A DNA stretch of 64,000 bases, from the NCBI GenBank assembly GCA_032718475.1, contig JAUCBJ010006711.1, positions 124,001-188,000 of the forward strand. The letters are read 5' to 3'. The notes below the pieces were generated by a model, which was not told the origin of the DNA, made no database searches, and saw only the letters and a program-made list of their open reading frames with translations. The DNA comes from Nemertoderma westbladi (taxonomy: Eukaryota; Animalia; Xenacoelomorpha). Shown here piece by piece: positions 1 to 61,529 of this stretch. Position 1 is the stretch's first letter. Every line of letters begins with the position of its first letter. The position numbers were made by a program, and so were the translations under genes.

Positions 1-3000
1 CGAGATAGAGAATCTTAAATGAACGTCAAAAGAACAGGTAACACTTACATTTATAGCAGTAATCAGCTGTTATTTGCTACGTCTTTCCGCTGGAGATGGA
101 TTAATTTTGATTGCGTTGGAACACCCCCTATCTGTGGCTGTCTGAGTGGAGAGATAAGTAGCCTATCTCCCTGTTAATATTGTTGTGTTCTAGAATATTT
201 ATTATAGTTTCATCCTATTGCCAAAGTGACTAGAGCTGAAGTTGACTCATAATACAATAATTCACCTCAAATATCTCACCTATTTCATGAACATAATGAA
301 GTATTAAATCCATGTCAAATTCCTTGGTATTTTTCTGCAATAATTTATCAAAATATTCTCTGTTCAAAAACCATATCAATTTTCATATTTATAACTTCTA
401 TCCCACTCAACGAGATAAAATATCTTAAATGAAAGTCAAAAGAACAGGTAACACTTACATTTATAGAAGTAATCAGCTGTTATTTGCTTCGTCTTTCCAC
501 TGGAGATGGATGAATCTTGATTGTGTCAGAACACCCCTATCTGTGGCTGTCTGAGTTGAGAGATAAGTAGCCTATCTCCCTATTAATATTGTTGTGTTCT
601 AGAATATTTATTATAGTTTCATCGCATTGCTAAAGTGGCTGGAGCTAAAGTTATTATGTAATGCAATAATTCACCTCAAATATCTCAGCTATTTCATGAA
701 CATAATGAAGTATTAAATCCATGTCAAAATCCTTGGTATTTTTCTGGAATAATTTATCAAAATATCCTCTGATTTTTTTCAAAAACCATATCAATTTTCA
801 TATTTATAACTTCTATCCCACTCCACGACATAAAGAATCTAAAATGAAAGTCAAAAGAACAGGTAACACTTACATTTATAGAAGTAATCAGCTGTTATTT
901 GCTACGTCTTTCCGCTGGAGATGGATGAATTTTGAGTGTCAGAACACCCCCTATCTGTGGCTGTCTGAGTTGAGAAATAAGTAGCCTATCTCCCTATTAA
1001 TATTGTTGTGTTCTAGAATATTTATTATAGTTTCATCGTATTGCTAAAGTGGCTGGAGCTAAAGTTATTATGTAATGCAATAATTCACCTCAAATATCTC
1101 AGCTATTTCATGAACATAATGAAGTATAAAGCCATGTCAAAATCCTTGGTGTTTTTCTGCAATAATTTATCAAAATATCCTCTGATTTTTTACAAAAACC
1201 ATATCGATTTTCATATTTATAACTTCTATCCCACTCCACGAGATAGAGAATCTTAAATGAACGTCAAAAGAACAGGTAACACTTACATTTATAGCAGTAA
1301 TCAGCTGTTATTTGCTACGTCTTTCCGCTGGAGATGGATTAATTTTGATTGCGTTGGAACACCCCCTATCTGTGGCTTTCTGAGTGGAGAGATAAGTATC
1401 CTATCTCCCTATTAATATTGTTGTGTTCTAGAATATTTTTTATAGTTTCATCGTATTGCCAAAGTGACTAGAGCTGAAGTTAACTCATAATACAATAATT
1501 CACCTCAAATATCTCAGCTATTTCATGAACATAATGAAGTATTAAAGCCATGTCAAAATCATTGGTGTTTTTCTGCAATAATTTATCAAAATATCCTCTG
1601 ATTTTTATCAAAAACCACATCGATTTTCTTATTTATAACTTCTATCCCACTCCACGAGATAGAGAATCTTAAATGAACGTCAAAAGAACAGGTAACACTT
1701 ACATTTATAGCTGTAATCAGCTGTTATTTGCTACGTCTTCCCGCTGGAGATGGATGAATTTTGATTGCGTTGGAACACCCCCTATCTGTGGCTGTCTGAG
1801 TGGAGAGATAAGTAGCCTATCTCCCTGTTAATATTGTTGTGTTCTAGAATATTTATTATAGTTTCATCCTATTGCCAAAGTGACTAGAGCTGAAGTTGAC
1901 TCATAATACAATAATTCACCTCAAATATCTCACCTATTTCATGAACATAATGAAGTATTAAATCCATGTCAAATTCCTTGGTATTTTTCTGCAATAATTT
2001 ATCAAAATATTCTCTGTTCAAAAACCATATCAATTTTCATATTTATAACTTCTATCCCACTCAACGAGATAAAATATCTTAAATGAAAGTCAAAAGAACA
2101 GGTAACACTTACATTTATAGAAGTAATCAGCTGTTATTTGCTTCGTCTTTCCACTGGAGATGGATGAATCTTGATTGTGTCAGAACACCCCTATCTGTGG
2201 CTGTCTGAGTTGAGAGATAAGTAGCCTATCTCCCTATTAATATTGTTGTGTTCTAGAATATTTATTATAGTTTCATCGCATTGCTAAAGTGGCTGGAGCT
2301 AAAGTTATTATGTAATGCAATAATTCACCTCAAATATCTCAGCTATTTCATGAACATAATGAAGTATTAAATCCATGTCAAAATCCTTGGTATTTTTCTG
2401 GAATAATTTATCAAAATATCCTCTGATTTTTTTCAAAAACCATATCAATTTTCATATTTATAACTTCTATCCCACTCCACGACATAAAGAATCTAAAATG
2501 AAAGTCAAAAGAACAGGTAACACTTACATTTATAGAAGTAATCAGCTGTTATTTGCTACGTCTTTCCGCTGGAGATGGATGAATTTTGAGTGTCAGAACA
2601 CCCCCTATCTGTGGCTGTCTGAGTTGAGAAATAAGTAGCCTATCTCCCTATTAATATTGTTGTGTTCTAGAATATTTATTATAGTTTCATCGTATTGCTA
2701 AAGTGGCTGGAGCTAAAGTTATTATGTAATGCAATAATTCACCTCAAATATCTCAGCTATTTCATGAACATAATGAAGTATTAAAGCCATGTCAAAATCC
2801 TTGGTGTTTTTCTGCAATAATTTATCAAAATATCCTCTGATTTTTTACAAAAACCATATCGATTTTCATATTTATAACTTCTATCCCACTCCACGAGATA
2901 GAGAATCTTAAATGAACGTCAAAAGAACAGGTAACACTTACATTTATAGCAGTAATCAGCTGTTATTTGCTACGTCTTTCCGCTGGAGATGGATTAATTT

Positions 3001-4609
3001 TGATTGCGTTGGAACACCCCCTATCTGTGGCTTTCTGAGTGGAGAGATAAGTATCCTATCTCCCTATTAATATTGTTGTGTTCTAGAATATTTTTTATAG
3101 TTTCATCGTATTGCCAAAGTGACTAGAGCTGAAGTTAACTCATCATACAATAATTCACCTCAAATATCTCAGCTATTTCATGAACATAATGAAGTATTAA
3201 AGCCATGTCAAAATCATTGGTGTTTTTCTGCAATAATTTATCAAAATATCCTCTGATTTTTATCAAAAACCACATCGATTTTCTTATTTATAACTTCTAT
3301 CCCACTCCACGAGATAGAGAATCTTAAATGAACGTCAAAAGAACAGGTAACACTTACATTTATAGCTGTAATCAGCTGTTATTTGCTACGTCTTCCCGCT
3401 GGAGATGGATGAATTTTGATTGCGTTGGAACACCCCCTATCTGTGGCTGTCTGAGTGGAGAGATAAGTAGCCTATCTCCCTGTTAATATTGTTGTGTTCA
3501 AGAATATTTATTATAGTTTCATCGTATTGCCAAAGTGACTAGAGCTGAAGTTGACTCATAATACAATAATTCACCTCAAATATCTCAGCTATTTCATGAA
3601 CATAATGAAGTATTAAATCAATGTCAAATTCCTTGGTATTTTTCTGCAATAATTTATCAAAATATCCTCTGATTTTTTTCAAAAACCATATCAATTTTCA
3701 TCTTTATAACTTCTATCCCACTCAACGAGATAAAGTATCTTAAATGAAAGTCAAAAGAACAGGTAACACTTACATTTATAGAAGTAATCAGCTGTTATTT
3801 GCTACGTCTTTCCGCTGGAGATGGATGAATTTTGATTGCGTTGGAACACCCCCCTATCTGTGGCTTTCTGAGTGGAGAGATAAGTATCCTATCTCCCTAT
3901 TAATATTGTTGTGTTCTAGAATATTTTTTATAGTTTCATCGTATTGCCAAAGTGACTAGAGCTGAAGTTGTCTCATAATTCAATAATTCACCTCAAATAT
4001 CTCAGCTATTTCATGAACATAATGAAGTATTAAATCCATGTCAAAATCCTTGGTATTTTTCTGCAATAATTTATCAAAATATCCTCTGATTTTTTTCAAA
4101 AACCATATCAATTTTCATATTTATAACTTCTATCCCACTCCACGAGATAGAGAATCTTAAATGAACGTCAAAAGAACAGGTAACACTTAAATTTATAGAA
4201 GTAATCAGCTGTTATTTGCTACGTCTTTCCGCTGGAGATGGATGAATTTTGATTGCGTTGGAACACCCCCTATCTGTGGCTTTCTGAGTGGAGAGATAAG
4301 TATCCTATCTCCCTATTAATATTGTTGTGTTCTAGAATATTTTTTATAGTTTCATCGTATTGCCAAAGTGACTAGAGCTGAAGTTAACTCATAATACAAT
4401 AATTCACCTCAAATATCTCAGCTATTTCATGAACATAATGAAGTATTAAAGCCATGTCAAAATCATTGGTGTTTTTCTGCAATAATTTATCAAAATATCC
4501 TCAGATTTTTTTCAAAAACACATCGATTTTCTTATTTATAACTTCTATCCCACTCCACGAGATAGAGAATCTTAAATGAATGTCAAAAGAACAGGTAACT
4601 CTTACATTT
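1..4609. repeat. Tandem satellite array, ~410-416 bp monomer (segment 1)
   Basis: Motif CGA(G/C)ATA..ATCT recurs at 1, 411, 826, 1239, 1655; identical spurious ORFs 1654 bp apart (721 and 2375). Two subtypes: GCCAAAGTGACTAGAGCTGAAG and GCTAAAGTGGCTGGAGCTAAAG. Confidence 0.98.
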
Positions 4610-6788
4610 CCCTGCAAACAATGTATTGTTAAAAAGCTGTTATTAAAATGTTATTTAATGACATAGATAACATTATTTCAAATTGTTAGATTAATGATAA
4701 AAAAACTGTAAATTGGCCAAGAAATATGACGTTATATACTAACGTTATTATTTCGTTTTTAATAACATTAAAATAACAAAGCCAGGATGGTTACATATAT
4801 CATTACTTTTATGTTATTCCTTATCATTATTATTGTATTTTTATTGACATTAAAATAACAACGGCATAATGTTTATTTAGATCGTTACTTTTATGTTATT
4901 TCTTAACATAAAAATATTGTTTGCTAAAAACGTAACATTATACGTGCATTTAAGCCCTTCTCTCATGTTTTATGGTTGGTTCGCTTGCTCAAACTAATAA
5001 TCCCCCTCCATTGCCGTTCTTTATATCGTTCTTTATAATTTCCAAACCCTTTATTGAATAATTAATTAATACAGTAATTTCCCTACGCATGTTGATATGG
5101 TAATGGCAGGCTACAATCTCTAACACAGTTTGATTGAATACAATTTTGTTGTAGGCAATTGTATGCAAATTAATAACAATTAAAACGTATAACATGAATT
5201 GAATTTTTTGTATAATGACCAGTCAGGAACAAATAATGAAATAAACAGCAAAATCAAAGTAAAATATCCCAGAATAAGTAAACAACAAATATATGGCTGT
5301 ATGGCCCATTACTTAAATGGTTTTGATATTTCGGTTAAAGTTAATCACAGACCTAAAAAAGAATATGTTTATGACGTAATAATAAGTGACAACAACGTAA
5401 TGAATTGCATCAATTAAAATACTTTGAGTTAATATTATTCACTAGATTTATAGATCTGATTTGTAGTCTATATAAAATAATGTACATGATAGTGGGTTTA
5501 ATAAATAATACCTCACAACAATGTTAAATTATTAAAAGGGGCAGGTTACAGTTGGCTACAGAGGCACATTATTATATCCTACGGGTAAACAAAAAAAAAC
5601 AGGTTACAGATTTATTTCTGGGAGAGTAATCAGTACTTATTTGAATCGATATCTCCCTGGAGAGGGATGATTTTGATTGCATCGCAAATCCTCCCTATCT
5701 GAACAAATCATATTTAAAAAATTAAATGTTAATTATAATTATAGCTGAGTGAGCTTCATTTATTAAACTGTAAAAATAAATCAATAGGCCTAGGCCCTAC
5801 AAAAGTACAATCTAAAAACTGAAACAATAAATAGTTTGTAATAACAGTTAATGTGAAGTTTTCAAATCGAAATCGAATCGAAAGTTTTGTAGTAATGCTG
5901 TCCCTGTGCCCTGCCCCTTCAACTGAAAACTGGGACCTCCCAATAATAAGAATTCCAATCTTTAGTCCTCGGCTGTTGAAATCCACCATCAGCAGATCAG
6001 TACAGACAAATAAGTCAATCCTCCACCTGTCAGTGCTGGTTTAAGGGGACTTCCTGCTCCTGGTCCTGGCAGACTTGAATTCTGTAATTGGTAGGTCTAA
6101 TGCAGTAATGTATGAATCCAGAGGGTAAAGGCGAACTCGCATTCAGGTAGATATGTTTTATTTATGAGTTCAGGTTAAATAAATCACAAAACCAAAACTA
6201 TAAAACCAAAAATATAAGCTACTGTACAGAGCAGTAGGCCTGCAGTAACTATACTACAGTAATATAGAGATAGGCCTTGCAGTACAGCAGTATAACAATA
6301 CATATACAGAATAAACATTGAATACAGGCAGGCCAGAATGAGTATTGTACAACATACCTGATACCATACCAGCATACTGTATACCATTTACATGTGGAAA
6401 ATTCCTCCATTACCGCGAATTTTAAAATTAGCCAATCATCAATCTCAGATTAGATAATAGAAGTGACAGCGTCTATCGCATAATGTTTATTTTATGTGAC
6501 AAAATAACATTGTTCTGATATGTAACAAACCATGTTCTTAAAATGTTAGGACTAAACACTTATAAAACATTTTTGACTAATGTTTATGTTCTCACATTAA
6601 AATTACGTTTTTTTAACATCAACAGTTATCATTTATTTAATGTCTGACAAAGACATTATAGAGTAATGTTAAAATAACATATATTGAACATCTAAATATT
6701 CTATCAAACAAGGAATAACATTTATCAACATTTATAACAAATTAATGATGTTTTTCTGACATTCCTTGAAAGTAAATTGTTTGCAGGG
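4610..6788. mobile_element. Non-autonomous TIR DNA transposon, probably CMC/EnSpm (CACTA)-like
   Basis: Perfect 13-bp TIR CCCTGCAAACAAT ... ATTGTTTGCAGGG. 2-bp TT duplication compared with the empty paralogous monomer near 13850 (ACATTTATAG). Subterminal regions rich in TAACATT/AATGTT motifs. No transposase ORF. Superfamily inferred from CCC termini, 2-bp TSD and subterminal repeats. Confidence 0.85.
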
Positions 6789-9700
6789 TTATAGCAGTAA
6801 TCAGCTGTTATTTGCTACGTCTTTCCGCTGGAGATGGATTAATTTTGATTGCGTTGGAACACCCCCTATCTGTGGCTGTCTGAGAGGAGAGATAAGTAGC
6901 CTATCTCCCTGTTAATATTGTTGTGTTCTAGAATATTTATTATAGTTTCATCGTATTGCCAAAGTGACTAGAGCTGAAGTTGACTCATAATACAATAATT
7001 CACCTCAAATATCTCAGCTATTTCATGAACATAATGAAGTATTAAATCCATGTCAAATTCCTTGGTATTTTTCTGCAATAATTTATCAAAATATCCTCTG
7101 ATTTTTTTCAAAAACCATATCAATTTTCATATTTATAACTTCTATCCCACTCAGCGAGATAAAGTATCTTAAATGAAAGTCAAAAGAACAGGTAACACTT
7201 ACATTTATAGAAGTAATCAGCTGTTATTTGCTTCGTCATTCCGCTGGAGATGGATGAATTTTGATTGTGTCAGAACACCCCTATCTGTGGCTGTCTGAGT
7301 TGAGAGATAAGTAGCCTATCTCCCTATTAATATTGTTGTGTTCTAGAATATTTATTATAGTTTCATCGTATTGCTAAAGTGGCTGGAGCTAAAGTTATTA
7401 TGTAATGCAATAATTCACCTCAAATATCTCAGCTATTTCATGAACATAATCAAGTATTAAAGCCATGTCAAAATCCTTGGTGTTTTTCTGCAATAATTTA
7501 TCAAAATATCCTCTGATTTTTTACAAAAATCATATCGATTTTCATATTTATAACTTCTATCCCACTCCACGAGATAGAGAATCTTAAATTAACGTCAAAA
7601 GAACAGGTAACACTTACATTTATAGCAGTAATCAGCTGTTATTTGCTACGTCTTTCCGCTGGAGATGGATGAATTTTGATTGCGTTGGAACACCCCCTAT
7701 CTGTGGCTGTCTGAGTGGAGAGATAAGTAGCCTATCTCCCTGTTAATATTGTTGTGTTCTAGAATATTTTTTATAGTTTCATCGTATTGCCAAAGTGACT
7801 AGAGCTGAAGTTAGCTGATAATACAATAATTCACCTCAAATATCTCAGCTATTTCATGAACATAATGAAGTATTAAAGCCATGTCAAAATCATTGGTGTT
7901 TTTCTGCAATAATTTATCAAAATATCCTCTGATTTTTTTCAAAAACCACATCGATTTTCTTATTTATAACTTCTATCCCACTCCACGAGATAGAGAATCT
8001 TAAATGAACGTCAAAAGAACAGGTAACACTTACATTTATAGCAGTAATCAGCTGTTATTTGCTACGTCTTTCCGCTGGAGGTGGATGAATTTTGATGGCG
8101 TTGGAACACCCCCTATCTGTGGCTGTCTGAGAGGAGAGATAAGTAGCCTATCTCCCTATTATTATTGTTGTGTTCTAGAATATTTATTATAGTTTCATCG
8201 TATTGCTAAAGTGGCTGGAGCTAAAGTTATTATGTAATGCAATAATTCACCTCAAATATCTCAGCTATTTCATGAACATAATGAAGTATTAAATCCATGT
8301 CAAATTCCTTGGTATTTTTCTGCAATAATTTATCAAAATATCCTCTGATTTTTTTCAAAAACCATATCAATTTTCATATTTATAACTTCTATCCCACTCC
8401 ACGAGATAAAGAATCTTAAATGAAAGTCAAAAGAAGAGGTAACACTTACATTTATAGAAGTAATCAGCTGTTATTTGCTACGTCTTTCCGCTGGAGATGG
8501 ATGAATTTTGATTGTGTCAGAACACCCCCTATCTGTGGCTGTCTGAATTGAGAAATAAGTAGCCTATCTCCCTATTAATATTGTTGTGTTCTAGAATATT
8601 TATTATAGTTTCATCGTATTGCTAAAGTGGCTGGAGCTAAAGTTATTATGTAATGCAATAATTCACCTCAAATATCTCAGCTATTTCATGAACATAATGA
8701 AGTATTAAAGCCATGTCAAAATCCTTGGTGTTTTTCTGCAATAATTTATCAAAATATCCTCTGATTTTTTACAAAAACCATATCGATTTTCATATTTATA
8801 ACTTCTATCCCACTCCACGAGATAGAGAATCTTAAATGAACGTCAAAAGAACAGGTAACACTTACATTTATAGAAGTAATCAGCTGTTATTTGCTTCGTC
8901 TTTCCGCTGGAGATGGATGAATTTTGATTGCGTTGGAACACCCCCTATCTGTGGCTTTCTGAGTGGAGAGATAAGTATCCTATCTCCCTATTAATATTGT
9001 TGTGTTCTAGAATATTTTTTATAGTTTCATCGTATTGCCAAAGTGACTAGAGCTGAAGTTAACTCATAATACAATAATTCACCTCAAATATCTCAGCTAT
9101 TTCATGAACATAATGAAGTATTAAAGCCATGTCAAAATCATTGGTGTTTTTCTGCAATAATTTATCAAAATATCCTCTGATTTTTATCAAAAACCACATC
9201 GATTTTCTTATTTATAACTTCTATCCCACTCCACGAGATAGAGAATCTTAACTGAACGTCAAAAGAACAGGTAACACTTACATTTATAGCAGTAATCAGC
9301 TGTTATTTGCTACGTCTTTCCGCTGGAGATGGATGAATTTTAATTGCGTTGGAACACCCCCTACCTGTGGCTGTCTGAGTGGAGAGATAAGTAGCCTATC
9401 TCGCTGTGAATATTGTTGTGTTCTAGAATATTTATTATAGTTTCATCATATTGCCAAAGTGACTAGAGCTGAAGTTGACTCATAATACAATAATTCACCT
9501 CAAATATCTCAGCTATTTCATGAACATAATGAAGTATTAAATCCATGTCAAATTCCTTGGTATTTTTTTGCAATAATTTATCAAAATATCCTCTGATTTT
9601 TTTCAAAAACCACATCGATTTTCTTATTTATAACTTCTATCCCACTCCACGAGATAGAGAATCTTAAATGAACGTCAAAAGAACAGGTAACACTTACAAT

Positions 9701-12700
9701 TATAGCAGTAATCAGCTGTTATTTGCTACGTCTTCCCGCTGGAGATGGATGAATTTTGATTGCGTTGGAACACCCCCTATCTGTGGCTGTCTGAGTGGAG
9801 AGATAAGTAGCCTATCTCCCTGTTAATATTGTTGTGTTCTAGAATATTTATTATAGTTTCATCGTATTGCCAAAGTGACTAGAGCTGAAGTTGACTCATA
9901 ATACAATAATTCACCTCAAATATCTCAGCTATTTCATGAACATAATGAAGTATTAAATCCATGTCAAATTCCTTGGTATTTTTCTGCAATAATTTATCAA
10001 AATATCCTCTGATTTTTTTCAAAAACCATATCAATTTTCGTATTTATAACTTCTATCCCACTCAACGAGATAAAGTATCTTAAATGAAAGTCAAAAGAAC
10101 AGGTAACACTTACATTTATAGAAGTAATCAGCTGTTATTTGCTACGTCTTTCCGCTGGAGATGGATGAATTTTGATTGCGTTGGAACACCCCCCTATCTG
10201 TGGCTTTCTGAGTGGAGAGATAAGTATCCTATCTCCCTATTAATATTGTTGTGTTCTAGAATATTTTTTATAGTTTCATCGTATTGCCAAAGTGACTAGA
10301 GCTGAAGTTGTCTCATAATTCAATAATTCACCTCAAATATCTCAGCTATTTCATGAACATAATGAAGTATTAAATCCATGTCAAAATCCTTGGTATTTTT
10401 CTGCAATAATTTATCAAAATATCCTCTGATTTTTTTCAAAAACCATATCAATTTTCATATTTATAACTTCTATCCCACTCCACGAGATAGAGAATCTTAA
10501 ATGAACGTCAAAAGAACAGGTAACACTTAAATTTATAGAAGTAATCAGCTGTTATTTGCTACGTCTTTCCGCTGGAGATGGATGAATTTTGATTGCGTTG
10601 GAACACCCCCTATCTGTGGCTTTCTGAGTGGAGAGATAAGTATCCTATCTCCCTATTAATATTGATGTGTTCTAGAATATTTTTTATAGTTTCATCGTAT
10701 TGCCAAAGTGACTAGAGCTGAAGTTAACTCATAATACAATAATTCACCTCAAATATCTCAGCTATTTCATGAACATAATGAAGTATTAAAGCCATGTCAA
10801 AATCATTGGTGTTTTTCTGCAATAATTTATCAAAATATCCTCTGATTTTTTTCAAAAACCACATCGATTTTCTTATTTATAACTTCTATCCCACTCCACG
10901 AGATAGAGAATCTTAAATGAACGTCAAAAGAACAGGTAACACTTACATTTATAGCAGTAATCAGCTGTTATTTGCTACGTCTTTCCGCTGGAGATGGATT
11001 AATTTTGATTGCGTTGGAACACCCCCTATCTGTGGCTGTCTGAGTGGAGAGATAAGTAGCCTATCTCCCTGTTAATATTGTTGTGTTCTAGAATATTTAT
11101 TATAGTTTCATCCTATTGCCAAAGTGACTAGAGCTGAAGTTGACTCATAATACAATAATTCACCTCAAATATCTCACCTATTTCATGAACATAATGAAGT
11201 ATTAAATCCATGTCAAATTCCTTGGTATTTTTCTGCAATAATTTATCAAAATATTCTCTGTTCAAAAACCATATCAATTTTCATATTTATAACTTCTATC
11301 CCACTCAACGAGATAAAGTATCTTAAATGAAAGTCAAAAGAACAGGTAACACTTACATTTATAGAAGTAATCAGCTGTTATTTGCTTCGTCTTTCCACTG
11401 GAGATGGATGAATCTTGATTGTGTCAGAACACCCCTATCTGTGGCTGTCTGAGTTGAGAGATAAGTAGCCTATCTCCCTATTAATATTGTTGTGTTCTAG
11501 AATATTTATTATAGTTTCATCGCATTGCTAAAGTGGCTGGAGCTAAAGTTATTATGTAATGCAATAATTCACCTCAAATATCTCAGCTATTTCATGAACA
11601 TAATGAAGTATTAAATCCATGTCAAAATCCTTGGTATTTTTCTGCAATAATTTATCAAAATATCCTCTGATTTTTTTCAAAAACCATATCAATTTTCATA
11701 TTTATAACTTCTATCCCACTCCACGACATAAAGAATCTAAAATGAAAGTCAAAAGAACAGGTAACACTTACATTTATAGAAGTAATCAGCTGTTATTTGC
11801 TACGTCTTTCCGCTGGAGATGGATGAATTTTGATGTGTCAGAACACCCCCTATCTGTGGCTGTCTGAGTTGAGAAATAAGTAGCCTATCTCCCTATTAAT
11901 ATTGTTGTGTTCTAGAATATTTATTATAGTTTCATCGTATTGCTAAAGTGGCTGGAGCTAAAGTTATTATGTAATGCAATAATTCACCTCAAATATCTCA
12001 GCTATTTCATGAACATAATGAAGTATTAAAGCCATGTCAAAATCCTTGGTGTTTTTCTGCAATAATTTATCAAAATATCCTCTGATTTTTTACAAAAACC
12101 ATATCGATTTTCATATTTATAACTTCTATCCCACTCCACGAGATAGAGAATCTTAAATGAACGTCAAAAGAACAGGTAACACTTACATTTATAGCAGTAA
12201 TCAGCTGTTATTTGCTACGTCTTTCCGCTGGAGATGGATTAATTTTGATTGCGTTGGAACACCCCCTATCTGTGGCTTTCTGAGTGGAGAGATAAGTATC
12301 CTATCTCCCTATTAATATTGTTGTGTTCTAGAATATTTTTTATAGTTTCATCGTATTGCCAAAGTGACTAGAGCTGAAGTTAACTCATAATACAATAATT
12401 CACCTCAAATATCTCAGCTATTTCATGAACATAATGAAGTATTAAAGCCATGTCAAAATCATTGGTGTTTTTCTGCAATAATTTATCAAAATATCCTCTG
12501 ATTTTTATCAAAAACCACATCGATTTTCTTATTTATAACTTCTATCCCACTCCACGAGATAGAGAATCTTAAATGAACGTCAAAAGAACAGGTAACACTT
12601 ACATTTATAGCTGTAATCAGCTGTTATTTGCTACGTCTTCCCGCTGGAGATGGATGAATTTTGATTGCGTTGGAACACCCCCTATCTGTGGCTGTCTGAG

Positions 12701-15700
12701 TGGAGAGATAAGTAGCCTATCTCCCTGTTAATATTGTTGTGTTCTAGAATATTTATTATAGTTTCATCGTATTGCCAAAGTGACTAGAGCTGAAGTTGAC
12801 TCATAATACAATAATTCACCTCAAATATCTCAGCTATTTCATGAACATAATGAAGTATTAAATCAATGTCAAATTCCTTGGTATTTTTCTGCAATAATTT
12901 ATCAAAATATCCTCTGATTTTTTTCAAAAACCATATCAATTTTCATCTTTATAACTTCTATCCCACTCAACGAGATAAAGTATCTTAAATGAAAGTCAAA
13001 AGAACAGGTAACACTTACATTTATAGAAGTAATCAGCTGTTATTTGCTACGTCTTTCCGCTGGAGATGGATGAATTTTGATTGCGTTGGAACACCCCCCT
13101 ATCTGTGGCTTTCTGAGTGGAGAGATAAGTATCCTATCTCCCTATTAATATTGTTGTGTTCTAGAATATTTTTTATAGTTTCATCGTATTGCCAAAGTGA
13201 CTAGAGCTGAAGTTGTCTCATAATTCAATAATTCACCTCAAATATCTCAGCTATTTCATGAACATAATGAAGTATTAAATCCATGTCAAAATCCTTGGTA
13301 TTTTTCTGCAATAATTTATCAAAATATCCTCTGATTTTTTTCAAAAACCATATCAATTTTCATATTTATAACTTCTATCCCACTCCACGAGATAGAGAAT
13401 CTTAAATGAACGTCAAAAGAACAGGTAACACTTAAATTTATAGAAGTAATCAGCTGTTATTTGCTACGTCTTTCCGCTGGAGATGGATGAATTTTGATTG
13501 CGTTGGAACACCCCCTATCTGTGGCTTTCTGAGTGGAGAGATAAGTATCCTATCTCCCTATTAATATTGTTGTGTTCTAGAATATTTTTTATAGTTTCAT
13601 CGTATTGCCAAAGTGACTAGAGCTGAAGTTAACTCATAATACAATAATTCACCTCAAATATCTCAGCTATTTCATGAACATAATGAAGTATTAAAGCCAT
13701 GTCAAAATCATTGGTGTTTTTCTGCAATAATTTATCAAAATATCCTCAGATTTTTTTCAAAAACCACATCGATTTTCTTATTTATAACTTCTATCCCACT
13801 CCACGAGATAGAGAATCTTAAATGAATGTCAAAAGAACAGGTAACACTTACATTTATAGCAGTAATCAGCTGTTATTTGCTACGTCTTTCCGCTGGAGAT
13901 GGATTAATTTTGATTGCGTTGGAACACCCCCTATCTGTGGCTGTCTGAGAGGAGAGATAAGTAGCCTATCTCCCTGTTAATATTGTTGTGTTCTAGAATA
14001 TTTATTATAGTTTCATCGTATTGCCAAAGTGACTAGAGCTGAAGTTGACTCATAATACAATAATTCACCTCAAATATCTCAGCTATTTCATGAACATAAT
14101 GAAGTATTAAATCCATGTCAAATTCCTTGGTATTTTTCTGCAATAATTTATCAAAATATCCTCTGATTTTTTTCAAAAACCATATCAATTTTCATATTTA
14201 TAACTTCTATCCCACTCAGCGAGATAAAGTATCTTAAATGAAAGTCAAAAGAACAGGTAACACTTACATTTATAGAAGTAATCAGCTGTTATTTGCTTCG
14301 TCTTTCCGCTGGAGATGGATGAATTTTGATTGTGTCAGAACACCCCTATCTGTGGCTGTCTGAGTTGAGAGATAAGTAGCCTATCTCCCTATTAATATTG
14401 TTGTGTTCTAGAATATTTATTATAGTTTCATCGCATTGCTAAAGTGGCTGGAGCTAAAGTTATTATGTAATGCAATAATTCACCTCAAATATCTCAGCTA
14501 TTTCATGAACATAATGAAGTATTAAATCCATGTCAAAATCCTTGGTATTTTTCTGCAATAATTTATCAAAATATCCTCTGATTTTTTTCAAAAACCATAT
14601 CAATTTTCATATTTATAACTTCTATCCCACTCCACGAGATAAAGAATCTAAAATGAAAGTCAAAAGAACAGGTAACACTTACATTTATAGAAGTAATCAG
14701 CTGTTATTTGCTACGTCTTTCCGCTGGAGATGGATGAATTTTGATTGTGTCAGAACACCCCCTATCTGTGGCTGTCTGAGTTGAGAAATAAGTAGCCTAT
14801 CTCCCTATTAATATTGTTGTGTTCTAGAATATTTATTATAGTTTCATCGTATTGCTAAAGTGGCTGGAGCTAAAGTTATTATGTAATGCAATAATTCACC
14901 TCAAATATCTCAGCTATTTCATGAACATAATGAAGTATTAAATCCATGTCAAATTCCTTGGTATTTTTCTGCAATAATTTATCAAAATATCCTCTGATTT
15001 TTTTCAAAAACCATATCAATTTTCATATTTATAACTTCTATCCCACTCCACGAGATAAAGAATCTTAAATGAAAGTCAAAAGAAGAGGTAACACTTACAT
15101 TTATAGAAGTAATCAGCTGTTATTTGCTACGACTTTCCGCTGGAGATGGATGAATTTTGATTGTGTCAGAACACCCCCTATCTGTGGCTGTCTGAGTTGA
15201 GAAATAAGTAGCCTATCTCCCTATTAATATTGTTGTGTTCTAGAATATTTATTATAGTTTCATCGTATTGCTAAAGTGGCTGGAGCTAGAGTTATTATGT
15301 AATGCAATAATTCACCTCAAATATCTCAGCTATTTCATGAACATAATCAAGTATTAAAGCCATGTCAAAATCCTTGGTGTTTTTCTGCAATAATTTATCA
15401 AAATATCCTCTGATTTTTTACAAAAATCATATCGATTTTCATATTTATAACTTCTATCCCACTCCACGAGATAGAGAATCTTAAATTAACGTCAAAAGAA
15501 CAGGTAACACTTACATTTATAGCAGTAATCAGCTGTTATTTGCTACGTCTTTCCGCTGGAGATGGATGAATTTTGATTGCGTTGGAACACCCCCTATCTG
15601 TGGCTGTCTGAGTGGAGAGATAAGTAGCCTATCTCCCTGTTAATATTGTTGTGTTCTAGAATATTTTTTATAGTTTCATCGTATTGCCAAAGTGACTAGA

Positions 15701-16395
15701 GCTGAAGTTAACTGATAATACAATAATTCACCTCAAATATCTCAGCTATTTCATGAACATAATGAAGTATTAAAGCCATGTCAAAATCATTGGTGTTTTT
15801 CTGCAATAATTTATCAAAATATCCTCTGATTTTTTTCAAAAACCACATCGATTTTCTTATTTATAACTTCTATCCCACTCCACGAGATAGAGAATCTTAA
15901 ATGAACGTCAAAAGAACAGGTAACACTTACATTTATAGCAGTAATCAGCTGTTATTTGCTACGTCTTTCCGCTGGAGGTGGATGAATTTTGATTGCGTTG
16001 GAACACCCCCTATCTATGGCTGTCTGAGTTGAGAGATAAGTAGCCTATCTCCCTATTAATATTGTTGTGTTCTAGAATATTTATTATAGTTTCATCGCAT
16101 TGCTAAAGTGGCTGGAGCTAAAGTTATTATGTAATGCAATAATTCACCTCAAATATCTCAGCTATTTCATGAACATAATGAAGTATTAAATCCATGTCAA
16201 AATCCTTGGTATTTTTCTGCAATAATTTATCAAAATATCCTCTGATTTTTTTCAAAAACCATATCAATTTTCATATTTATAACTTCTATCCCACTCCACG
16301 AGATAAAAAATCTAAAATGAAAGTCAAAAGAACAGGTAACACTTACATTTATAGAAGTAATCAGCTGTTATTTGCTACGTCTTTCCGCTGGAGAT
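6789..16395. repeat. Tandem satellite array (segment 2)
   Basis: Same monomer resumes exactly at the interruption point (TTATAGCAGTAATCAG); variant blocks repeat at 2905 bp (10084 vs 12989). Confidence 0.98.
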
Positions 16396-16887
16396 TGTTA
16401 GCTTATTCAATCCCGCTAACACCCCATAAAGTTAAGCCGATAAGCAATATTGGGGGCCACGAGATTGAGTAATCAATCACTCGTGCCACCCCAACAAAAT
16501 GGGAAGGAGAAACACACAATGAGGGTCAGGGGCCAAACCACTAACCCAGAGAGAACAGGTGGAGTGAACGGGAACACTCCAAAGGGCGCCAACAAGGGTA
16601 TCAACCAATCAGAGGGGGGAAAGGCATCGATTAGGTAGAGTAACAAGGCCAACCGTGCAATATAGCCAGTTGGCAGTAATCACTTTACTCAGTTATCTCA
16701 GTATCATATTGGTGCTAGTTAGGTTAGTTAGTTTAGCTAGGGAAGGACCGGGACTTTAATTACCATTTCCCGCCTTCTGTGTACGACATCATATATCTAT
16801 ATCTATATCTTTTACCTGAATATTATACGCGACAAACAACATAAACCCTTTCACTCTTCACACACGGCGGGGACGCGTAAATTAACA
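16396..16887 (+). repeat. Putative 5' LTR of BEL-A copy 1 (~492 bp)
   Basis: TGTTA...TAACA terminal inverted repeat; 3' boundary inferred because no 3' LTR is in the window. Confidence 0.6.
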
Positions 16888-17011
16888 AACGGATAAACCG
16901 GGATCCTCCCTGGATCCCGTCACAGTAATTAAACCCGTCGGTGGCACAGTAATTAAACTCAGAGCTGCCGACCTAGCTAGCTAAACTACCAGCCACCAAT
17001 CACCAAGCGAG

Positions 17012-20000
17012 ATGATTCAGTCGAGAGAGACAACGCCGACGCGGACCCCAGACGAAGAATTAACGATCCGCGAGGCCGCAACCAGGCGGTACAGGCCCAC
17101 AACGCCGGACCCATCGGTAACCGGTCATCCGGCAGTTCAAGACGAGGGGGGCCGCCTGGAACCCGAGGTCGAGCCGAGAGAAGGAGAGAGCGAGACGGAG
17201 GGAGAAGGAGACGAGTCGACACGGGACGTGGGTCGACATACTGATGTCGCCGGCCAGCCACAGGCCGAGGGCGACGAGCGGCCCACCGAAACGGCGACGG
17301 TGGGGCCGACGGTACGACGCCGGACCCGGAGAGATGGAGGAGATGTCGATACCGATGTCGCCGGCCAGCTACAGGCCGAGGGCGACGAACGGCCCACCGA
17401 AACGGCGACGGTGGGACGCCGGTACGACGTCGGACCCGGAGAGACGGAAGAGAGGTCGGCGACGAGGACGTCGGGGTTTCTGATCGACTTCGACGGGCCT
17501 ACAACGCGACCCAGAAACTGCTAAAGGAGGCCAAAGAGGGGGCGAAGATAGACGAGGTTAGACTGAGGAAACGACTAGGTGAGTCGAATAAACACTTTAA
17601 TTATCTAATGCGCTTTGGGCAAAGAGAACTGGCCAAGGAGAGAGCGAGGGGAGTTGCCGAGGAACTGTATGACTTGTGGCGGTGTAGGGGTATGGAACCT
17701 AGCGTAGTGTACGTAGGGCCATACTTAGTCGATGCTCGGGGACTAAAATTAGTGGGTTGGGAGAGACCTGAGGAGGGCGAATCCGAAGATTCGGCCTCGT
17801 CGGTCGGAGGAAGTTCCGGGAGGCGGGGGAAAGTCAGTAGGTCGGGAAGGCGGAGGGAATCCGTCGTAACCGATAAGTCTGCTACATCCTCCGCGAAAGG
17901 AAGACGGGTGAGAGAGATAAATGCCACGTACCATCTCGATTTGATAGAGCAAGGTCAAAGGGAAGTAGGTAGACGGTTAGAGGAGGGGAGAGTGCTGCTA
18001 GAGTGGGAAATGGCATTGATTAAAGAAACCGGAGAGAGGGCCGAAAGGGCTGCGAGAAGCCTTAGGGAGTGTGAGGAAGTAGGGAGGAAGGAACAAGAAG
18101 AGCGTGAGGCGGAACGTAGGGAACGTGTAGTGAGAGAGAAAAATGAGCGCAAAGAGCGTGAGGCGGAACGTAAGGAACGTGTAGCGAGAGAGGAAAATGA
18201 GTGCAAAGAACGCAAGGTGAGAGTGGAAAACTAGTGCAAAGAACGCGAGGCGAGAGAGGAAAACGAACGCAGAGAGCGTGAGGCGAGACGAAGGGAGGAG
18301 GCTAGAAGAGAGTTGGAATTGGCCGAGCGGGATGCACGGGAGTGTAGGGAGAGAATGGCAAGAAAGGAGTATGAGCGAGAAGAGCTGGAGAAACGTCAAG
18401 GTGAGCTTACAAGGTACAAAGCTATACATACGCGCGAACGGGAACTGGCGCGAATAGGGGCGTCTGAGAGTGGGGCAAGCTCGAGTATTTTCGAGGAGCC
18501 AGGGGCTGTGGATACATTTATTAATACCCCACTTACAGGGACCGCACGACAGACCCAAGACTGGTGTGACCGTACAGGTGGGGGGGGGGGGGGGTGGTAA
18601 TAATAATGCTACAGTAGACATCGTTAATATTAATAGTACCGTATTGGATAACCCTAATCCCTTTATTGCAGCAAATAATGCTTTACCTAGTAGCAGTAAT
18701 TTAAATTTAAATACAAATAATAATTTCAATTTGAAGGTGCAAAATAATCCGAATAATAATTTAAATTTAGAAAATAATAATAATTCAAATAATTTGAGTA
18801 ATGATCCAAGCCCGAATTTACAAAATAATTCAAATGATTTTGTTTCAAACGAACAAATTAATTCCGTTTCCAATATGGGTGCTATTAACGTGAACACGTC
18901 GGGCGTGTATGGCCAGGCAGAAGGGGGCCTGGTAGGCCACGTAGTTGGTAGGCAGGGAGTGGCTGGGTTGGGTAGACCCAGCGAGGGCCTGGTAGGCCAC
19001 GTAGTTGGTAGGCAGGGAGTAGAGGGCCTGGTAGGCCACGCAATAGCAGAAGGAGAGGCGGGGGTGAATAGACCCGACCGCGGTAGGGTTGATGTGTCGA
19101 CTGGAGAGGGATATAGTAGCGGGATGAGAGATAGCGAAGTTAGATGTGGCGAGTGGGGGGGGGGGGGGCTACAGGGGCCCCACAACAGCGAGTTAGCGGC
19201 GAAAAGGGGGGGCAGAGAGTGTCCCACAGCCGTCAGCGGATAATGCGCGGGCCGAAATAGGTAAACCGCAACACCCGGCGATGGAAAGCAATAGGGGGAT
19301 TGCGAGTATCCCCAGCTGCGTGCGACCGAGCAGAGAGAGACAGGTTGACGTCGTAAGAGGGCGGACGAAGCGTCGAGCCCAATCAGAAGAGGGAAGAAGA
19401 ACAGTGGGGTTTAACCGGGAGGTCGACGAGAGATCTCACGAGCGGGAATACTCCACTGAAAGGAGAAGAAGAGAAGACAGTAGTAGAAGTATCGCCGCGA
19501 ACGATAGAAGAGCGAGGACGGATAGCGAGCCGTCGGTAGTCGAGATGAGAACAGAGAGTCAGTGGGGTCGGACTCCGGGAGATTGCCGTCGCCCCGAGAG
19601 ATGCGACCTGGTGAGGCGCATTACGCGCCGATGGAGGGGTACGCGATGTACCGGTACGAAGACGAGAACAGTAGAGGGGGGGATCGAAGAGAAACTTTCC
19701 GACGGAATATACCTACCGATCGAGAATACGGTAGCCGCGGGGAGGACTATTCGAGAAGAATAAACTTCGATCCCGAGCGACACATGCAGACTGTAGGACA
19801 TACTGTAGGCCTTACTGCACATACCGTAGGCCATACGGACAGAGGCAATGTAGGCAATAGGATAGCGCGGACGACGGGATTAAACCCGGAAGTCGCGGAA
19901 TACATACCGGCGAGTAGGCCAGAAGCTGATAGGCCTATACCGGTACCAGTACAGCAGTATGACTACAGCATGCAGGGACATAACATATACCCAGGGGAGG

Positions 20001-21161
20001 GGGGAATTATTGCGGATAGGTGTATGGGCCCCAACATATTAACATCAACCCCAGTACCAAAGATACCGGTGGGGGGGGGGGGGGGCAGGGTGACATTCCC
20101 CCATCACAATATCAACAATATACCCCGATAGGAGCAAGAACAACGAGACCCTTGGATGAAAATAGGTCGTGCAACACAGAAATTTGGAGGGGGCCGCTAC
20201 CCCCGATGACATATCCAAGTCAAAGGAAAGGTGGAAATAGGACAGACGGACCGCACCAGACAGGAGAAACTATACAACATCCATCGAACCCATTGGAGGC
20301 ACAGGCAATGGGGATGGCCACGTTGATCGATGCGTTGAAAACGAGGATCGAGTTACCACCCGTGGAACCATTCAAATTCGATGGGAGTAGGCCGGAAGAA
20401 TATCTACAGTTTCGGCGCATGTATAGTAACGAAATACTAACAAAAAACGTGACGCAGGCGGAGTGCCTAAAATATCTGCAAGTATACACGGGAGGCCCAG
20501 CATACGATATCGTGAGGCAATACCAAGGCATAGAGGGCGGCTTCACGACAGCATGGCGGGCACTGGATAGGGAATACGGGCACCCGGCCAAGATCATCAG
20601 GCAGACACTGAGAGGCATAACATCGGGTGGCCTACAGGATAATCCCGTTAGCATTAAGACGTTCGCTAACAAAGTCGAAAAGGCGCTAATCGTGCTGAAG
20701 ACGCTAGACGCGCCATACGAACTCAACGCGTCCAACAACATCCACCACGATAGCGCAGGCACTACCGAACTGGCTGCGCAACAAGTGGAGGAAGATCGCT
20801 TTCTCCACTCGAGACAAGAAGGGTGTGGAACCGGGTTTAGAAGAAATGTCAAGCTTCTTAAACTACGAGGCTGAACTAATAACTGACCCAGTATATAGCG
20901 AAGATAGCCTGGGAAAGGGACCGAAGACGGATTACCATAGACCGAAACCAGAGCACAATACATCAAACGCATTACCAAGGCTCAGGCAATCATTGCCATA
21001 TGCAGCAACGCAGGGGACTACAAGTCCACAGATAGCCGAAAGTAAGACCACACCATGGAACGAACAGGGGAACAATAACAACACGAATAAATATAACCCC
21101 AGTATGTCCAGTAGGCCGAATCCAAACAATAAGAATAGTAGGGACTTTGGTACAAACGCAG
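17012..21161 (+). pseudogene. Disrupted gag region of BEL-A copy 1
   Basis: Chain of partial ORFs (17012, 17608, 18313, 18470, 19281, 19562, 20020, 20825) with an E/R-rich coiled coil and Pao gag-like LPPVEPFKFDGSRPEEYLQFRRMY; in-frame TAG at 18232 and several frameshifts. Confidence 0.85.
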
Positions 21162-24100
21162 TCTGTCGTGGCTGTCTGAGTGGAGAGATAAGTAGCCTAT
21201 CTCTCTGTTAATATTGTTGTGTTCTAGAATATTTATTATAGTTTCATCGTATTGCCAAAGTGACTAGAGCTGAAGTTGACTCATAATACAATAATTCACC
21301 TCAAATATCTCAGCTATTTCATGAACATAATGAAGTATTAAATCCATGTCAAATTCCTTGGTATTTTTTAGCAATAATTTATCAAAATATCCTCTGATGT
21401 TTTTCAAAAACCATATCGATTTTCATATTTATAACTTCTATCCCACTCCACGAGATAGAGAATCTTAAATGAACGTCAAAAGAACAGGTAACACTTACAT
21501 TGATAGCAGTAATCAGCTGTTATTTGCTACGTCTTTCCGAGGGAGATGGATTAATTTTGATTGCGTTGGAACACCCCCTATCTGTGGCTTTCTGAGTGGA
21601 GAGATAAGTATCCTATCTCCCTATTAATGTTGTTGTGTTCTAGAATATTTTTTATAGTTTCATCGTATTGCCAAAGTGACTAGAGCTGAAGTTAACTCAT
21701 AATACAATAATTCACCTCAAATATCTCAGCTATTTCATGAACATAATGAAGTATTAAAGCCATGTCAAAATCATTGGTGTTTTTCTGCAATAATTTATCA
21801 AAATATCCTCTGATTTTTTTCAAAAACCATATCGATTTTCTTATTTATAACTTCTATCCCACTCCACGAGATAGAGAATCTTAAATGAACGTCAAAAGAA
21901 CAGGTATTACTTACATTTATAGCAGTAATCAGCTGTAATTTGCTACGTCTTTCCGCTGGAGATGGATGAATTTTGATTGCGTTGGAACACCACCTATCTG
22001 TGGCTGTCTGAGTTGAGAGATAAGTAGCCTATCTCCCTATTAATATTGTTGTGTTCTAGAATATTTATTATAGTTTCATCGCATTGCTAAAGTGGCTGGA
22101 GCTAAAGTTATTATGTAATGCAATAATTCACCTCAAATATCTCAGCTATTTCATGAACATAATGAAGTATTAAATCCATGTCAAAATCCTTGGTATTTTT
22201 CTGCAATAATTTAACAAAATATCCTTGATTTTTTTCAAAAACCATATCAATTTTCATATTTATAACTTCTATCCCACTCCACGAGATAAAGAATCTAAAA
22301 TGAAAGTCAAAATAACAGGTAACACTTACATTTATAGAAGTAATCAGCTGTTATTTGCTACGTCTTTCCGCTGGAGATGGATGAATTTTGAGTGTGTCAG
22401 AACACCCCCTATCTGTGGCTGTCTGAGTTGAGAAATAAGTAGCATATCTCCCTATTAATATTGTTGTGTTCTAGAATATTTATTATAGTTTCATCGTATT
22501 GCTAAAGTGGCTGGAGCTAAAGTTATTATGTAATGCAATAATTCACCTCAAATATCTCAGCTATTTCATGAACATAATGAAGTATTAAAGCCATGTCAAA
22601 ATCCTTGGTGTTTTTCTGCAATAATTTATCAAAATATCCTCTGATTTTTTACAAAAACCATATCGATTTTCATATTTATAACTTCTATCCCACTCCACGA
22701 GATAGAGAATCTTAAATGAACGTCAAAAGAACAGGTAACACTTACATTTATAGAAGTAATCAGCTGTTATTTGCTTCGTCTTTCCGCTGGAGATGGATGA
22801 ATTTTGATTGCGTTGGAACACCCCAACACTTACATTTATAGCAGTAATCAGCTGTTATTTGCTACGTCTTTCCGCTGGAGATGGATGAATTTTGATTGCG
22901 TTGGAACACCCCCTATCTGTGGCTGTCTGAGTGGAGAGATAAGTAGCCTATCTCGCTGTTAATATTGTTGTGTTCTAGAATATTTATTATAGTTTCATCG
23001 TATTGCCAAAGTGACTAGAGCTGAAGTTGACTCATAATACAATAATTCACCTCAAATATCTCAGCTATTTCATGAACATAATGAAGTATTAAATCCATGT
23101 CAAATTCCTTGGTATTTTTTTGCAATAATTTATCAAAATATCCTCTGATTTTTTTCAAAAACCACATCGATTTTCTTATTTATAACTTCTATCCCACTCC
23201 ACGAGATAGAGAATCTTAAATGAACGTCAAAAGAACAGGTAACACTTACAATTATAGCAGTAATCAGCTGTTATTTGCTACGTCTTCCCGCTGGAGATGG
23301 ATGAATTTTGATTGCGTTGGAACACCCCCTATCTGTGGCTGTCTGAGTGGAGAGATAAGTAGCCTATCTCCCTGTTAATATTGTTGTGTTCTAGAATATT
23401 TATTATAGTTTCATCGTATTGCCAAAGTGACTAGAGCTGAAGTTAACTCATAATACAATAATTCACCTCAAATATCTCAGCTATTTCATGAACATAATGA
23501 AGTATTAAAGCCATGTCAAAATCATTGGTGTTTTTCTGCAATAATTTATCAAAATATCCTCTGATTTTTTTCAAAAACCACATCGATTTTCTTATTTATA
23601 ACTTCTATCCCACTCCACGAGATAGAGAATCTTAAATGAACGTCAAAAGAACAGGTAACACTTACATTTATAGCAGTAATCAGCTGTTATTTGCTACGTC
23701 TTTCCGCTGGAGATGGATTAATTTTGATTGCGTTGGAACACCCCCTATCTGTGGCTGTCTGAGTGGAGAGATAAGTAGCCTATCTCCCTGTTAATATTGT
23801 TGTGTTCTAGAATATTTATTATAGTTTCATCCTATTGCCAAAGTGACTAGAGCTGAAGTTGACTCATAATACAATAATTCACCTCAAATATCTCACCTAT
23901 TTCATGAACATAATGAAGTATTAAATCCATGTCAAATTCCTTGGTATTTTTCTGCAATAATTTATCAAAATATTCTCTGTTCAAAAACCATATCAATTTT
24001 CATATTTATAACTTCTATCCCACTCAACGAGATAAAGTATCTTAAATGAAAGTCAAAAGAACAGGTAACACTTACATTTATAGAAGTAATCAGCTGTTAT

Positions 24101-35355: not shown

Positions 35356-35847
35356 TGTTAGCTTATTCAATCCCGCTAACACCCCATAAAGTTAAGCCGA
35401 TAAGCAATATTGGGGGCCACGAGATTGAGTAATCAATCACTCGTGCCACCCCAATAAAATGGGAAGGAGAACCACACAATGAGGGTCAGGGGCCAAACCC
35501 CTAACCCAGAGAGAACAGGTGGAGTGAACGGGAACACTCCAAAGGGCGCCAACAAGGGTATCAACCAATCAGAGGGGGTAAAGGCATCGATTAGGTAGAG
35601 TAACAAGGCCAACCGTGCAATATAGCCAGTTGGCAGTAATCACTTTACTCAGTTATCTCAGTATCATATTGGTGCTAGTTAGGTTAGTTAGTTTAGCTAG
35701 GGAAGGACCGGGACTTTAATTACCATTTCCCGCCTTCTGTGTACGACATCATATATCTATATCTATATCTTTTACCTGAATATTATACGCGACAAACAAC
35801 ATAAACCCTTTCACTCTTCACACACGGCGGGGACGCGTAAATTAACA
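35356..35847 (+). repeat. Putative 5' LTR of BEL-A copy 2
   Basis: TGTTA...TAACA; a few substitutions versus 16396-16887. Confidence 0.6.
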
Positions 35848-35971
35848 AACGGATAAACCGGGATCCTCCCTGGATCCCGTCACAGTAATTAAACCCGTCG
35901 GTGGCACAGTAATTAAACTCAGAGCTGCCGACCTAGCTAGCTAAACTACCAGCCACCAATCACCAAGCGAG

Positions 35972-44444: not shown

Positions 44445-44510
44445 CAATTTATAGGTGATCCGGATGGGATGATGCAATAGGGTGACTCAATCGCTCTCCT
44501 ATTGGCTCTC
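44445..44510 (-). promoter_or_regulatory. Putative LTR promoter (CCAAT + TATA box)
   Basis: Minus strand GCCAATAGG (~44500) followed about 50 bp later by CCTATAAAT (44455-44447). Confidence 0.4.
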
Positions 44511-44866
44511 CAGTCCATGCTAGCATTAGACCAACCTGGAAGCAGTTAATCCAATAAGGAGGCCGGATTGTAGCCCTATTGCTCAAATTATTACCATATA
44601 TGGTAATGGTTCACGTCTCTGGCTGCTGAATGGCCAGGACGGCGTCCCTATGCTAGCCCTATCAAACTAATATCAGCAAGCACAAAATCCAGGGTCCGAA
44701 TAAACTCGCTACCCTGGAACTATCTACATATATCCTAATACAAAATTACGTAGGTAGGGCTACATACTATACAAAATGGATGGTTTCAAATATATGGGCG
44801 TTTTGATTTCCCTACCTAAATACCACTGCGTTATTATGCCTTATCTAAAATATCATGCTGCACAAT

Positions 44867-44950
44867 GGACTAATATTACGTACAGTATAACGGACTAATA
44901 TTGCATACTGCATAACGGACTAATATTACATACTGCATGATGACTAATAA
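44867..44950. repeat. 25-bp tandem repeat (x3.4) in the putative U3
   Basis: GGACTAATATT(A/G)C(G/A)TAC(A/T)G(T/C)ATAAC repeated. Confidence 0.8.
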
Positions 44951-61370: not shown

Positions 61371-61529
61371 GGCACCTTAGTGGAGTTAGAGAAGAGTTTA
61401 GTCATCCAAGATTTGGACTGAGGACGGTGGGATTGAGACGCCCTTCCCACACAAAAAATTTAAAATAAAAAAAAAAATAAAATAATAGTACATAATAGGT
61501 ACGCAGTTAGTAGGCAGAAGTTAGCCAGT

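What the first reader, a model, noticed from the sequence alone, without database searches (positions are those of the whole stretch)
5595..5701. DNA transposon contains a diverged copy of the satellite core next to which it inserted
Seen: 5625-5701 (AGTAATCAGTACTTATTTGAATCGATATCTCCCTGGAGAGGGATGATTTTGATTGCATCGCAAATCCTCCCTATCTG) matches the monomer (AGTAATCAGCTGTTATTTGCTACGTCTTTCCGCTGGAGATGGATGAATTTTGATTGCGTTGGAACACCCCCTATCTG) at about 58/78 columns by hand. It is in the same orientation and preceded by AACAGGTTACA vs AACAGGTAACA. The insertion point is ~6 bp upstream of this segment of the monomer. It is far more diverged than monomers are from one another. Inference: the satellite arose from a relative of this transposon, the element captured an ancient monomer, or shared protein-binding sites steer insertion to the satellite.
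Basis: partly seen in the sequence, partly recalled or inferred. Interest (0 to 1): 0.72.

Follow-up and report, generated by a model that had tools for sequence, protein, structure and literature searches.

The report
Transposon and satellite share dispersed module
A DNA transposon that sits in a 416-base satellite array carries a 109-base piece about 75% identical to part of the satellite unit; the same piece also turns up in other sequence contexts, so both likely inherited it from an old scattered repeat, a known kind of link between repeats, and the side-by-side position is likely chance.

Summary
The match is real. Window 5593-5701, inside a 2,179-bp non-coding TIR element (4610-6788, 2-bp TT duplication), aligns to positions 41-147 of the 416-bp monomer at 83/111 columns; 0 of 500 shuffles reach the score. 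Homology stops sharply on both sides. The insertion is very recent (the interrupted monomer differs by 1 base from an intact one), while the match is about 0.25 substitutions per site old, so the piece was not taken from this array. In one public run the satellite is nearly absent but the shared piece is abundant with unrelated flanks, and the few junctions shown fall at the same two boundaries. Best reading: a dispersed ~108-bp module, copied separately into element and monomer. Targeting has little support: the site lies in the segment with 26% prior, relatives sit in non-satellite DNA, and a BEL element without the segment also landed in it. No Rfam family or significant RNA structure was found. 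TE-satellite homology is well known. The odd side result is a roughly 1000-fold lower satellite depth in one of four runs.

The parts
4610..6788 (.). Non-autonomous TIR DNA transposon, 2,179 bp, EnSpm/CACTA-like (superfamily not established); no Pfam match at E<0.01 in 18 reading frames tested
   Evidence: multicopy in runs X1-X3
4610..4632 (+). Left TIR (12 bp perfect, 23 bp at 83%)
6766..6788 (-). Right TIR
4608..4609 (+). Target-site duplication TT (second copy 6789-6790)
   Evidence: empty-site joint 4607-6789 in all four runs
5593..5701 (+). Shared ~108-bp module inside the element (A-rich start, CAGGTTAC block, AGTAATCAG ... CCCTATCTG)
4170..4276 (+). The same module in one intact satellite monomer (consensus positions 41-147; present in every monomer)
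1..35355 (+). 416-bp satellite array, 64 complete monomers, mean pairwise identity 94.6%, with higher-order duplicated blocks
4545..7141 (+). Monomer interrupted by the element after consensus position 65; its two parts differ by 1 and 0 bases from intact monomer 13791
16396..21167 (+). Truncated BEL/Pao retroelement inserted after consensus position 110, inside the module; lacks the module itself
35356..42790 (+). Longer copy of the same BEL/Pao insertion, same junction, 99.4% identical over 4,770 nt (one event, duplicated)

Best explanation
The 109-bp match is real homology, and it likely comes from an old dispersed ~108-bp repeat module of which the transposon and the satellite unit each hold a separate copy. 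Inferred sequence of events: (1) the module spread through the genome long ago, most likely as a small non-autonomous element or a fragment of one; (2) one copy became nested in the middle of the TIR element's lineage; (3) another copy with ~309 bp of unrelated flank was amplified head-to-tail into the satellite; (4) very recently the element jumped by cut-and-paste into the array, a large target, and fell inside the homologous segment by chance. Shown: homology, sharp ends, recency of insertion, copies with other flanks in run X4. Inferred: what the module is, the order of steps 2 and 3, and chance placement.
For: Homology ends sharply on both sides and nothing else of the monomer matches the element (second-best score 26 vs shuffle mean 27). 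In run X4, 52 contigs were laid on 4150-5760, 34 only in part; summed depth is 8,265 on 4204-4257 against 55-132 on the rest of the monomer, and 78% of what was laid runs on into unlike sequence. Of 6 loose-end rows shown (of 37), one row of 3 contigs begins matching at 4169, where the element's homology also begins; one contig continues through CCCCTATCTG and then differs, where the element's homology ends; three rows run on for 255 nt or more. In one search one X4 contig carries a CAGGTTAC block upstream in a third context, one joins the element-type core at 5626 to another flank, and 2 contigs in X2 leave the core with other flanks. The interrupted monomer is 1 base from an intact one whereas element and monomer cores differ by p=0.21, JC 0.25. 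A related element end lies in a 1.5-kb low-depth contig with ~850 nt of unlike left flank in X1-X3, and in X3 a contig of depth 467 (element ~1,040) runs 320 nt beyond the right TIR into sequence unlike the stretch (table 8).
Against: No complete dispersed copy was seen: only 30-letter loose ends, some with low agreement (0.57-0.66), 6 of 37 rows and 24 of 262. The exact 3' boundary rests on one contig; five other contigs leave the monomer earlier (4257-4259). The flanks of the dispersed copies are unidentified and could be other members of the same transposon clan (rival 1). Contig depth is not a copy number, and the library type of X4 is only guessed as DNA. Both independent insertions in this array lie inside the module (p about 0.07), as does an 88-bp internal duplication. 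The module has no TSD, clear TIR, tail or known head that would name it as an element.
Confidence: 0.55

Rival explanations
1. The module is a conserved internal part of this CACTA-like clan (for example a promoter or untranslated exon); the dispersed copies are clan members, and the satellite arose by tandem amplification of an internal 416-bp stretch of a diverged relative.
For: Precedent: a CACTA tnp2 fragment gave rise to the main Chenopodium satellite (PMC7320549, abstract). A diverged relative of the element exists (29 differences and 7 gaps in 177 nt). The high depth per contig in X4 (8,265 from at most 52 contigs) suggests that the other flanks are themselves repeated.
Against: The other 309 bp of the monomer show no similarity to the element. 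In X4 the element's allele has lost about 25 nt at 5570-5604, including the 5' block of the module (table 4), so that block is dispensable there. Mismatches are not clustered into motifs (41 runs vs 42.8 expected, P=0.37).
Confidence: 0.25
2. The element captured a piece of an ancestral satellite monomer (Pack-type capture), and the copies have drifted apart since.
For: Same orientation; 25% divergence from all present monomers fits an old event.
Against: A capture would have arbitrary ends, yet the ends coincide with those of copies in other contexts; the module is abundant in X4, where the rest of the monomer is rare.
Confidence: 0.08
3. The module is a functional protein-binding or open-chromatin site that draws insertions, so elements land in it more often than by chance, possibly through a protein that binds both element and satellite.
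For: 2 of 2 independent insertions in this array fall in 107 of 416 bp (p about 0.07); element depth and satellite depth fall together in X4.
Against: The BEL element lacks the module, so shared sequence is not needed. Family members sit in non-satellite flanks. The module is not more conserved than the rest of the monomer (polymorphic sites 32 of 107 vs 66 of 309, p=0.09 in the opposite direction). Cut-and-paste transposases act on ends, not on internal homology (general knowledge).
Confidence: 0.07
4. The module encodes an undescribed small structured RNA; the satellite would be an amplified pseudogene array.
For: The 3' half can fold into an imperfect hairpin in element and monomers; variant bases on its 3' arm keep pairing (97.6% of cells paired); minus strand ends in a T-rich run like a Pol III terminator (sequence).
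Against: Folding z-scores -1.9 to +1.35, none strong; covariation no better than shuffles (293 of 500 reach it); the changes are transitions; no Rfam family; no hammerhead core in the module.
Confidence: 0.05

Closest known systems
TE-related satellites of oysters (PMC11136912, passages read)
   Same: Marine-invertebrate satellites whose monomer matches a TE over only a segment; the authors explain these by tandem amplification of mixed repeat loci.
   Different: There the TE is named from Repbase and often a Helitron; here the shared piece is unnamed, and the carrier element has inserted into the homologous segment.
CACTA-like Jozin and satellite CficCl-61-40 in Chenopodium (PMC7320549, abstract and outline)
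   Same: A CACTA-like element and a major satellite share a short segment.
   Different: There ~40 bp of the tnp2 coding domain is the whole monomer at 82-95% identity; here a non-coding 108 bp is a quarter of the monomer at ~75%.
Helentron/HINE and pearl-like elements carrying core repeats (PMC4067079 passages; PMC3879986 abstract)
   Same: Modular non-autonomous elements that share cores with satellites.
   Different: The carrier here has true TIRs and a 2-bp TSD and holds a single partial unit, not an internal array; no 12-15 bp subTIRs.
Non-LTR retrozymes (PMC7229834, passages)
   Same: Low-GC tandem repeats of 150-450 bp in animals.
   Different: No hammerhead ribozyme found here.

Membership tests
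EnSpm/CACTA (CMC) non-autonomous element [4610-6788] | Terminal inverted repeats | tested here: met
   12 bp perfect, 23 bp at 83%
EnSpm/CACTA (CMC) non-autonomous element [4610-6788] | TSD of 2-5 bp (PMC12730594) | tested here: met
   TT duplicated; empty site seen in four runs
EnSpm/CACTA (CMC) non-autonomous element [4610-6788] | 5'-CA..TG-3' termini 'in most cases' (PMC12730594) | tested here: not met
   Ends are CCC..GGG. CCC-ended animal EnSpm families are recalled, not confirmed by any search; hence 'EnSpm-like' only.
EnSpm/CACTA (CMC) non-autonomous element [4610-6788] | Short subterminal repeated motifs (feature recalled) | tested here: met
   6-8 AACAT/ATGTT-type motifs per 200 bp in the four terminal bins, 0-3 in the seven inner bins
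EnSpm/CACTA (CMC) non-autonomous element [4610-6788] | DDE transposase with C(2)C and H(3-4)H motifs | not testable with these tools
   Element has no long ORF and no transposase match; autonomous partner not available
Helentron/HINE [module] | 12-15 bp subTIRs (PMC4067079) | tested here: not met
   Only a 6-bp imperfect inverted pair (CAGGTA / TATCTG) read from the sequence
Helentron/HINE [module] | T-rich flanks at both ends, 3' palindrome | tested here: inconclusive
   T-rich at one end of the minus strand only; weak hairpin at the other end
Non-LTR retrozyme [satellite] | Tandem monomer 150-450 bp, GC under 45% | tested here: met
   416 bp, GC 33%
Non-LTR retrozyme [satellite] | Type I hammerhead ribozyme | tested here: not met
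   No Rfam hit; CTGAnGA 0 times on +, 2 times on - in window 1-16390
Known ncRNA or tRNA-derived SINE [module] | Match to an Rfam family or tRNA head | tested here: not met
   No hit at gathering score; chance-level hits only at E<=10; ARAGORN 0 genes

The most novel reading that the evidence does not exclude
The 108-bp module is a functional chromatin element reused by several repeat families: it seeded a satellite, draws transposon insertions, and the satellite together with most copies of this transposon lies in a compartment (germline-restricted, B or sex-limited DNA) that is missing from some samples of this marine invertebrate.
Probability: 0.1. Interest if true: 0.7.

Novelty: new member of a known kind. 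Interest (0 to 1): 0.3.

Why it matters
As best read, it is one more case of the shared 'repeat library' linking transposons and satellites, useful as a traceable origin for one satellite but not surprising. It would matter more if the module proved to attract insertions, since sequence-guided targeting of a cut-and-paste element to a satellite would be unusual, or if the near-absence of the satellite in one run reflects programmed DNA elimination or a supernumerary compartment; both are directly testable with the assembly and run metadata.

Tried and rejected
No whole genome is held, so genome-wide copy and insertion-site counts could not be made. Metagenome scans: first pattern 0 matches; relaxed pattern 24 loci, none alike beyond the pattern. 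Viral contigs 0; phage BLAST only 26-34 nt chance hits. Runs of organisms B and C and run X8: 0 contigs laid, no proof of absence. No RNA holder listed. No copy of the module outside array and element in the window. Coding exon: frames of element and monomer core have stops and uncompensated indels, transitions 7 vs transversions 15. Protein search with the GC-rich inner frame gave 2 hits, both sums of weak matches to tandem-repeat proteins. SL RNA, snRNA, snoRNA, SECIS, hammerhead and twister ideas came from recalled motifs and were dropped after Rfam and folding. Host taxon not resolved: Pao polyprotein hits are 35-43% identical, named ones from corals, molluscs, echinoderms, fish and others; 'marine invertebrate' is a guess. 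Earlier scan findings: none in 3 look-ups. The 1,166-aa ORF found no homologue and got no Atlas answer. Paper searches: '416 bp'+satellite+monomer gave 2 unrelated papers; a search for EnSpm 2-bp TSD in animals gave 0; a recalled CMC paper id was not held. No supplements were read.

Full report
Observation. The window begins with a 416-bp satellite array (1-35355; 64 complete monomers, mean pairwise identity 94.6%). It is interrupted at 4610-6788 by a 2,179-bp element with TIRs (12 bp perfect), a TT duplication and short repeated motifs near both ends. The score (70) is reached by 0 of 500 monomer shuffles and 0 of 300 block shuffles of the element. After masking, the best remaining match scores 26, at background. 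The 60 nt beyond either end score at background, while the upstream AACAGG block beats all 397 control windows. The insertion point, after consensus position 65, lies inside the full homologous stretch.

Two ages. The parts of the interrupted monomer differ by 1 and 0 bases from intact monomer 13791, so the insertion is very recent. The element's core is 70.7-75.7% identical to all 64 monomer cores, which are about 95% identical to each other; JC distance 0.25. The piece therefore predates the insertion by far and shows no sign of conversion by the neighbouring array.

Other copies. No genome is held, so public contig sets were used: 4 of 8 listed runs hold the element (3 studies). In X1-X3 the element's main contigs have depth about 1,000-2,300 against 25-32 for a contig holding a diverged relative, and they cover the core. 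That relative has about 850 nt of unlike left flank in one contig, and in X3 a contig of depth 467 continues 320 nt past the right TIR into sequence unlike the stretch; I read orientation from the record coordinates of table 8. So the family has contexts other than this satellite site. Depth is summed over contigs and is no copy number; these ratios are rough.

The module stands apart from both hosts. In X4 the satellite is rare (depth 113 at 4550-4626 against 354,552-964,668 in X1-X3). Laid on 4150-5760, X4 gives depth 55-132 on the monomer outside the core but 8,265 on 4204-4257; 34 of 52 contigs fit only in part and 78% of the laid depth runs on into unlike sequence. Six of 37 loose-end rows are shown: 3 contigs start matching at 4169, the start of the element's homology; 3 start at 4200 with an A-rich AGG block upstream; one continues through CCCCTATCTG and then differs, the end of the element's homology; five leave earlier, at 4257-4259, and run on 255 nt or more. 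One search adds one X4 contig with CAGGTTAC upstream in a third context, one joining the element-type core to a new flank, and 2 contigs in X2. I saw no complete dispersed copy, and the flanks are unidentified. Runs of organisms B and C laid nothing, and pattern scans of metagenome and viral contigs gave only chance matches.

Function of the module. No Rfam family matches, no tRNA. The 3' half can form an imperfect hairpin, but z-scores lie between -1.9 and +1.35 and covariation equals shuffles (16 sequences, 15 of them near-identical monomers, so a weak test). Mismatches between element and monomer are not clustered (P=0.37) and the core is no less polymorphic than the rest of the monomer (32 of 107 vs 66 of 309 sites). 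No constraint is demonstrated.

Targeting. A random insertion in a monomer falls in positions 41-147 with probability 0.26. The only other independent insertion in the array, a BEL/Pao element present twice through duplication (99.4% identical, same junction after position 110), also falls there, p about 0.07 for both, yet it carries no copy of the module. This leaves a weak hint of a hotspot and no support for guidance by shared sequence.

Mechanism, best reading (0.55). An old dispersed module was copied separately into the lineage of the element and into the 416-bp stretch that was later amplified; the element then jumped into the array by ordinary cut-and-paste. Main rival (0.25): the module is an internal part of this transposon clan and the satellite came from a relative. 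Capture of an old monomer (0.08), targeting (0.07) and a structured RNA (0.05) are less likely.

Comparison with what is known. Partial TE-monomer similarity is common in oysters and is attributed to tandem amplification of mixed repeat loci (PMC11136912, passages). A CACTA-derived satellite is described in Chenopodium (PMC7320549, abstract), and a review lists many TE-derived satellites (PMC9659126, passages). The CMC-Transib clade has 2-5 bp TSDs and mostly CA..TG ends (PMC12730594, passages); this element meets the first and not the second, so it is called EnSpm-like only; Repbase classes non-autonomous elements by ends and TSD (PMC4455052, passages). HINE features (PMC4067079, passages; PMC3879986, abstract) and the retrozyme hammerhead (PMC7229834, passages) are not met. 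One search for this monomer length found no description; that is a narrow search.

Verdict. Real homology, new instance of a known kind of TE-satellite link; interest 0.3. The unexplained drop of satellite and element depth in X4 could reflect another lineage, sex, tissue, a B chromosome or a different library type, and deserves a check of its own.

Noticed in passing
runs X1-X4 on window 4550-6850: Satellite depth in X4 is over 1000-fold and element depth about 7-15-fold lower than in X1-X3, while a related element end is not lower. Could be lineage, sex, tissue (DNA elimination), B chromosome or library type.
   Followed up: partly
window 42791-61370: BEL/Pao element on the minus strand with 1,665-bp repeats 99.8% identical, an open 2,633-aa Pao polyprotein frame and an extra 1,166-aa frame (45750-49250) with no Pfam match and no homologue among 7,991 scored candidates.
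   Followed up: partly
window 16396-21167 and 35356-42790: One BEL/Pao insertion duplicated with the array; the first copy is truncated and the array resumes at the 3' boundary of the shared module.
   Followed up: partly
window 22737-22912: 88-bp tandem duplication of most of the module inside one monomer.
   Followed up: no
window 5893-6089: GC-richer stretch inside the element between an acceptor-like and a donor-like site on the plus strand; possibly a decayed captured exon; no protein match.
   Followed up: partly
window 5070, 5988, 6052, 6358: This copy of the element carries 5-15 bp extra letters, looking like local duplications, that the majority contigs of the runs lack.
   Followed up: partly
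window 62486-63379: 297-aa frame at the start of another GC-rich element with a stretch that recalls a 3'-5' exonuclease (recalled motif); no Pfam match.
   Followed up: no
window 61519-61935: 32-bp minisatellite of about 8 copies.
   Followed up: no
window 1-35355: Multi-monomer blocks are duplicated almost exactly (for example monomers 24847-26511 and 28590-30254, 0 differences), a sign of recent unequal exchange.
   Followed up: no
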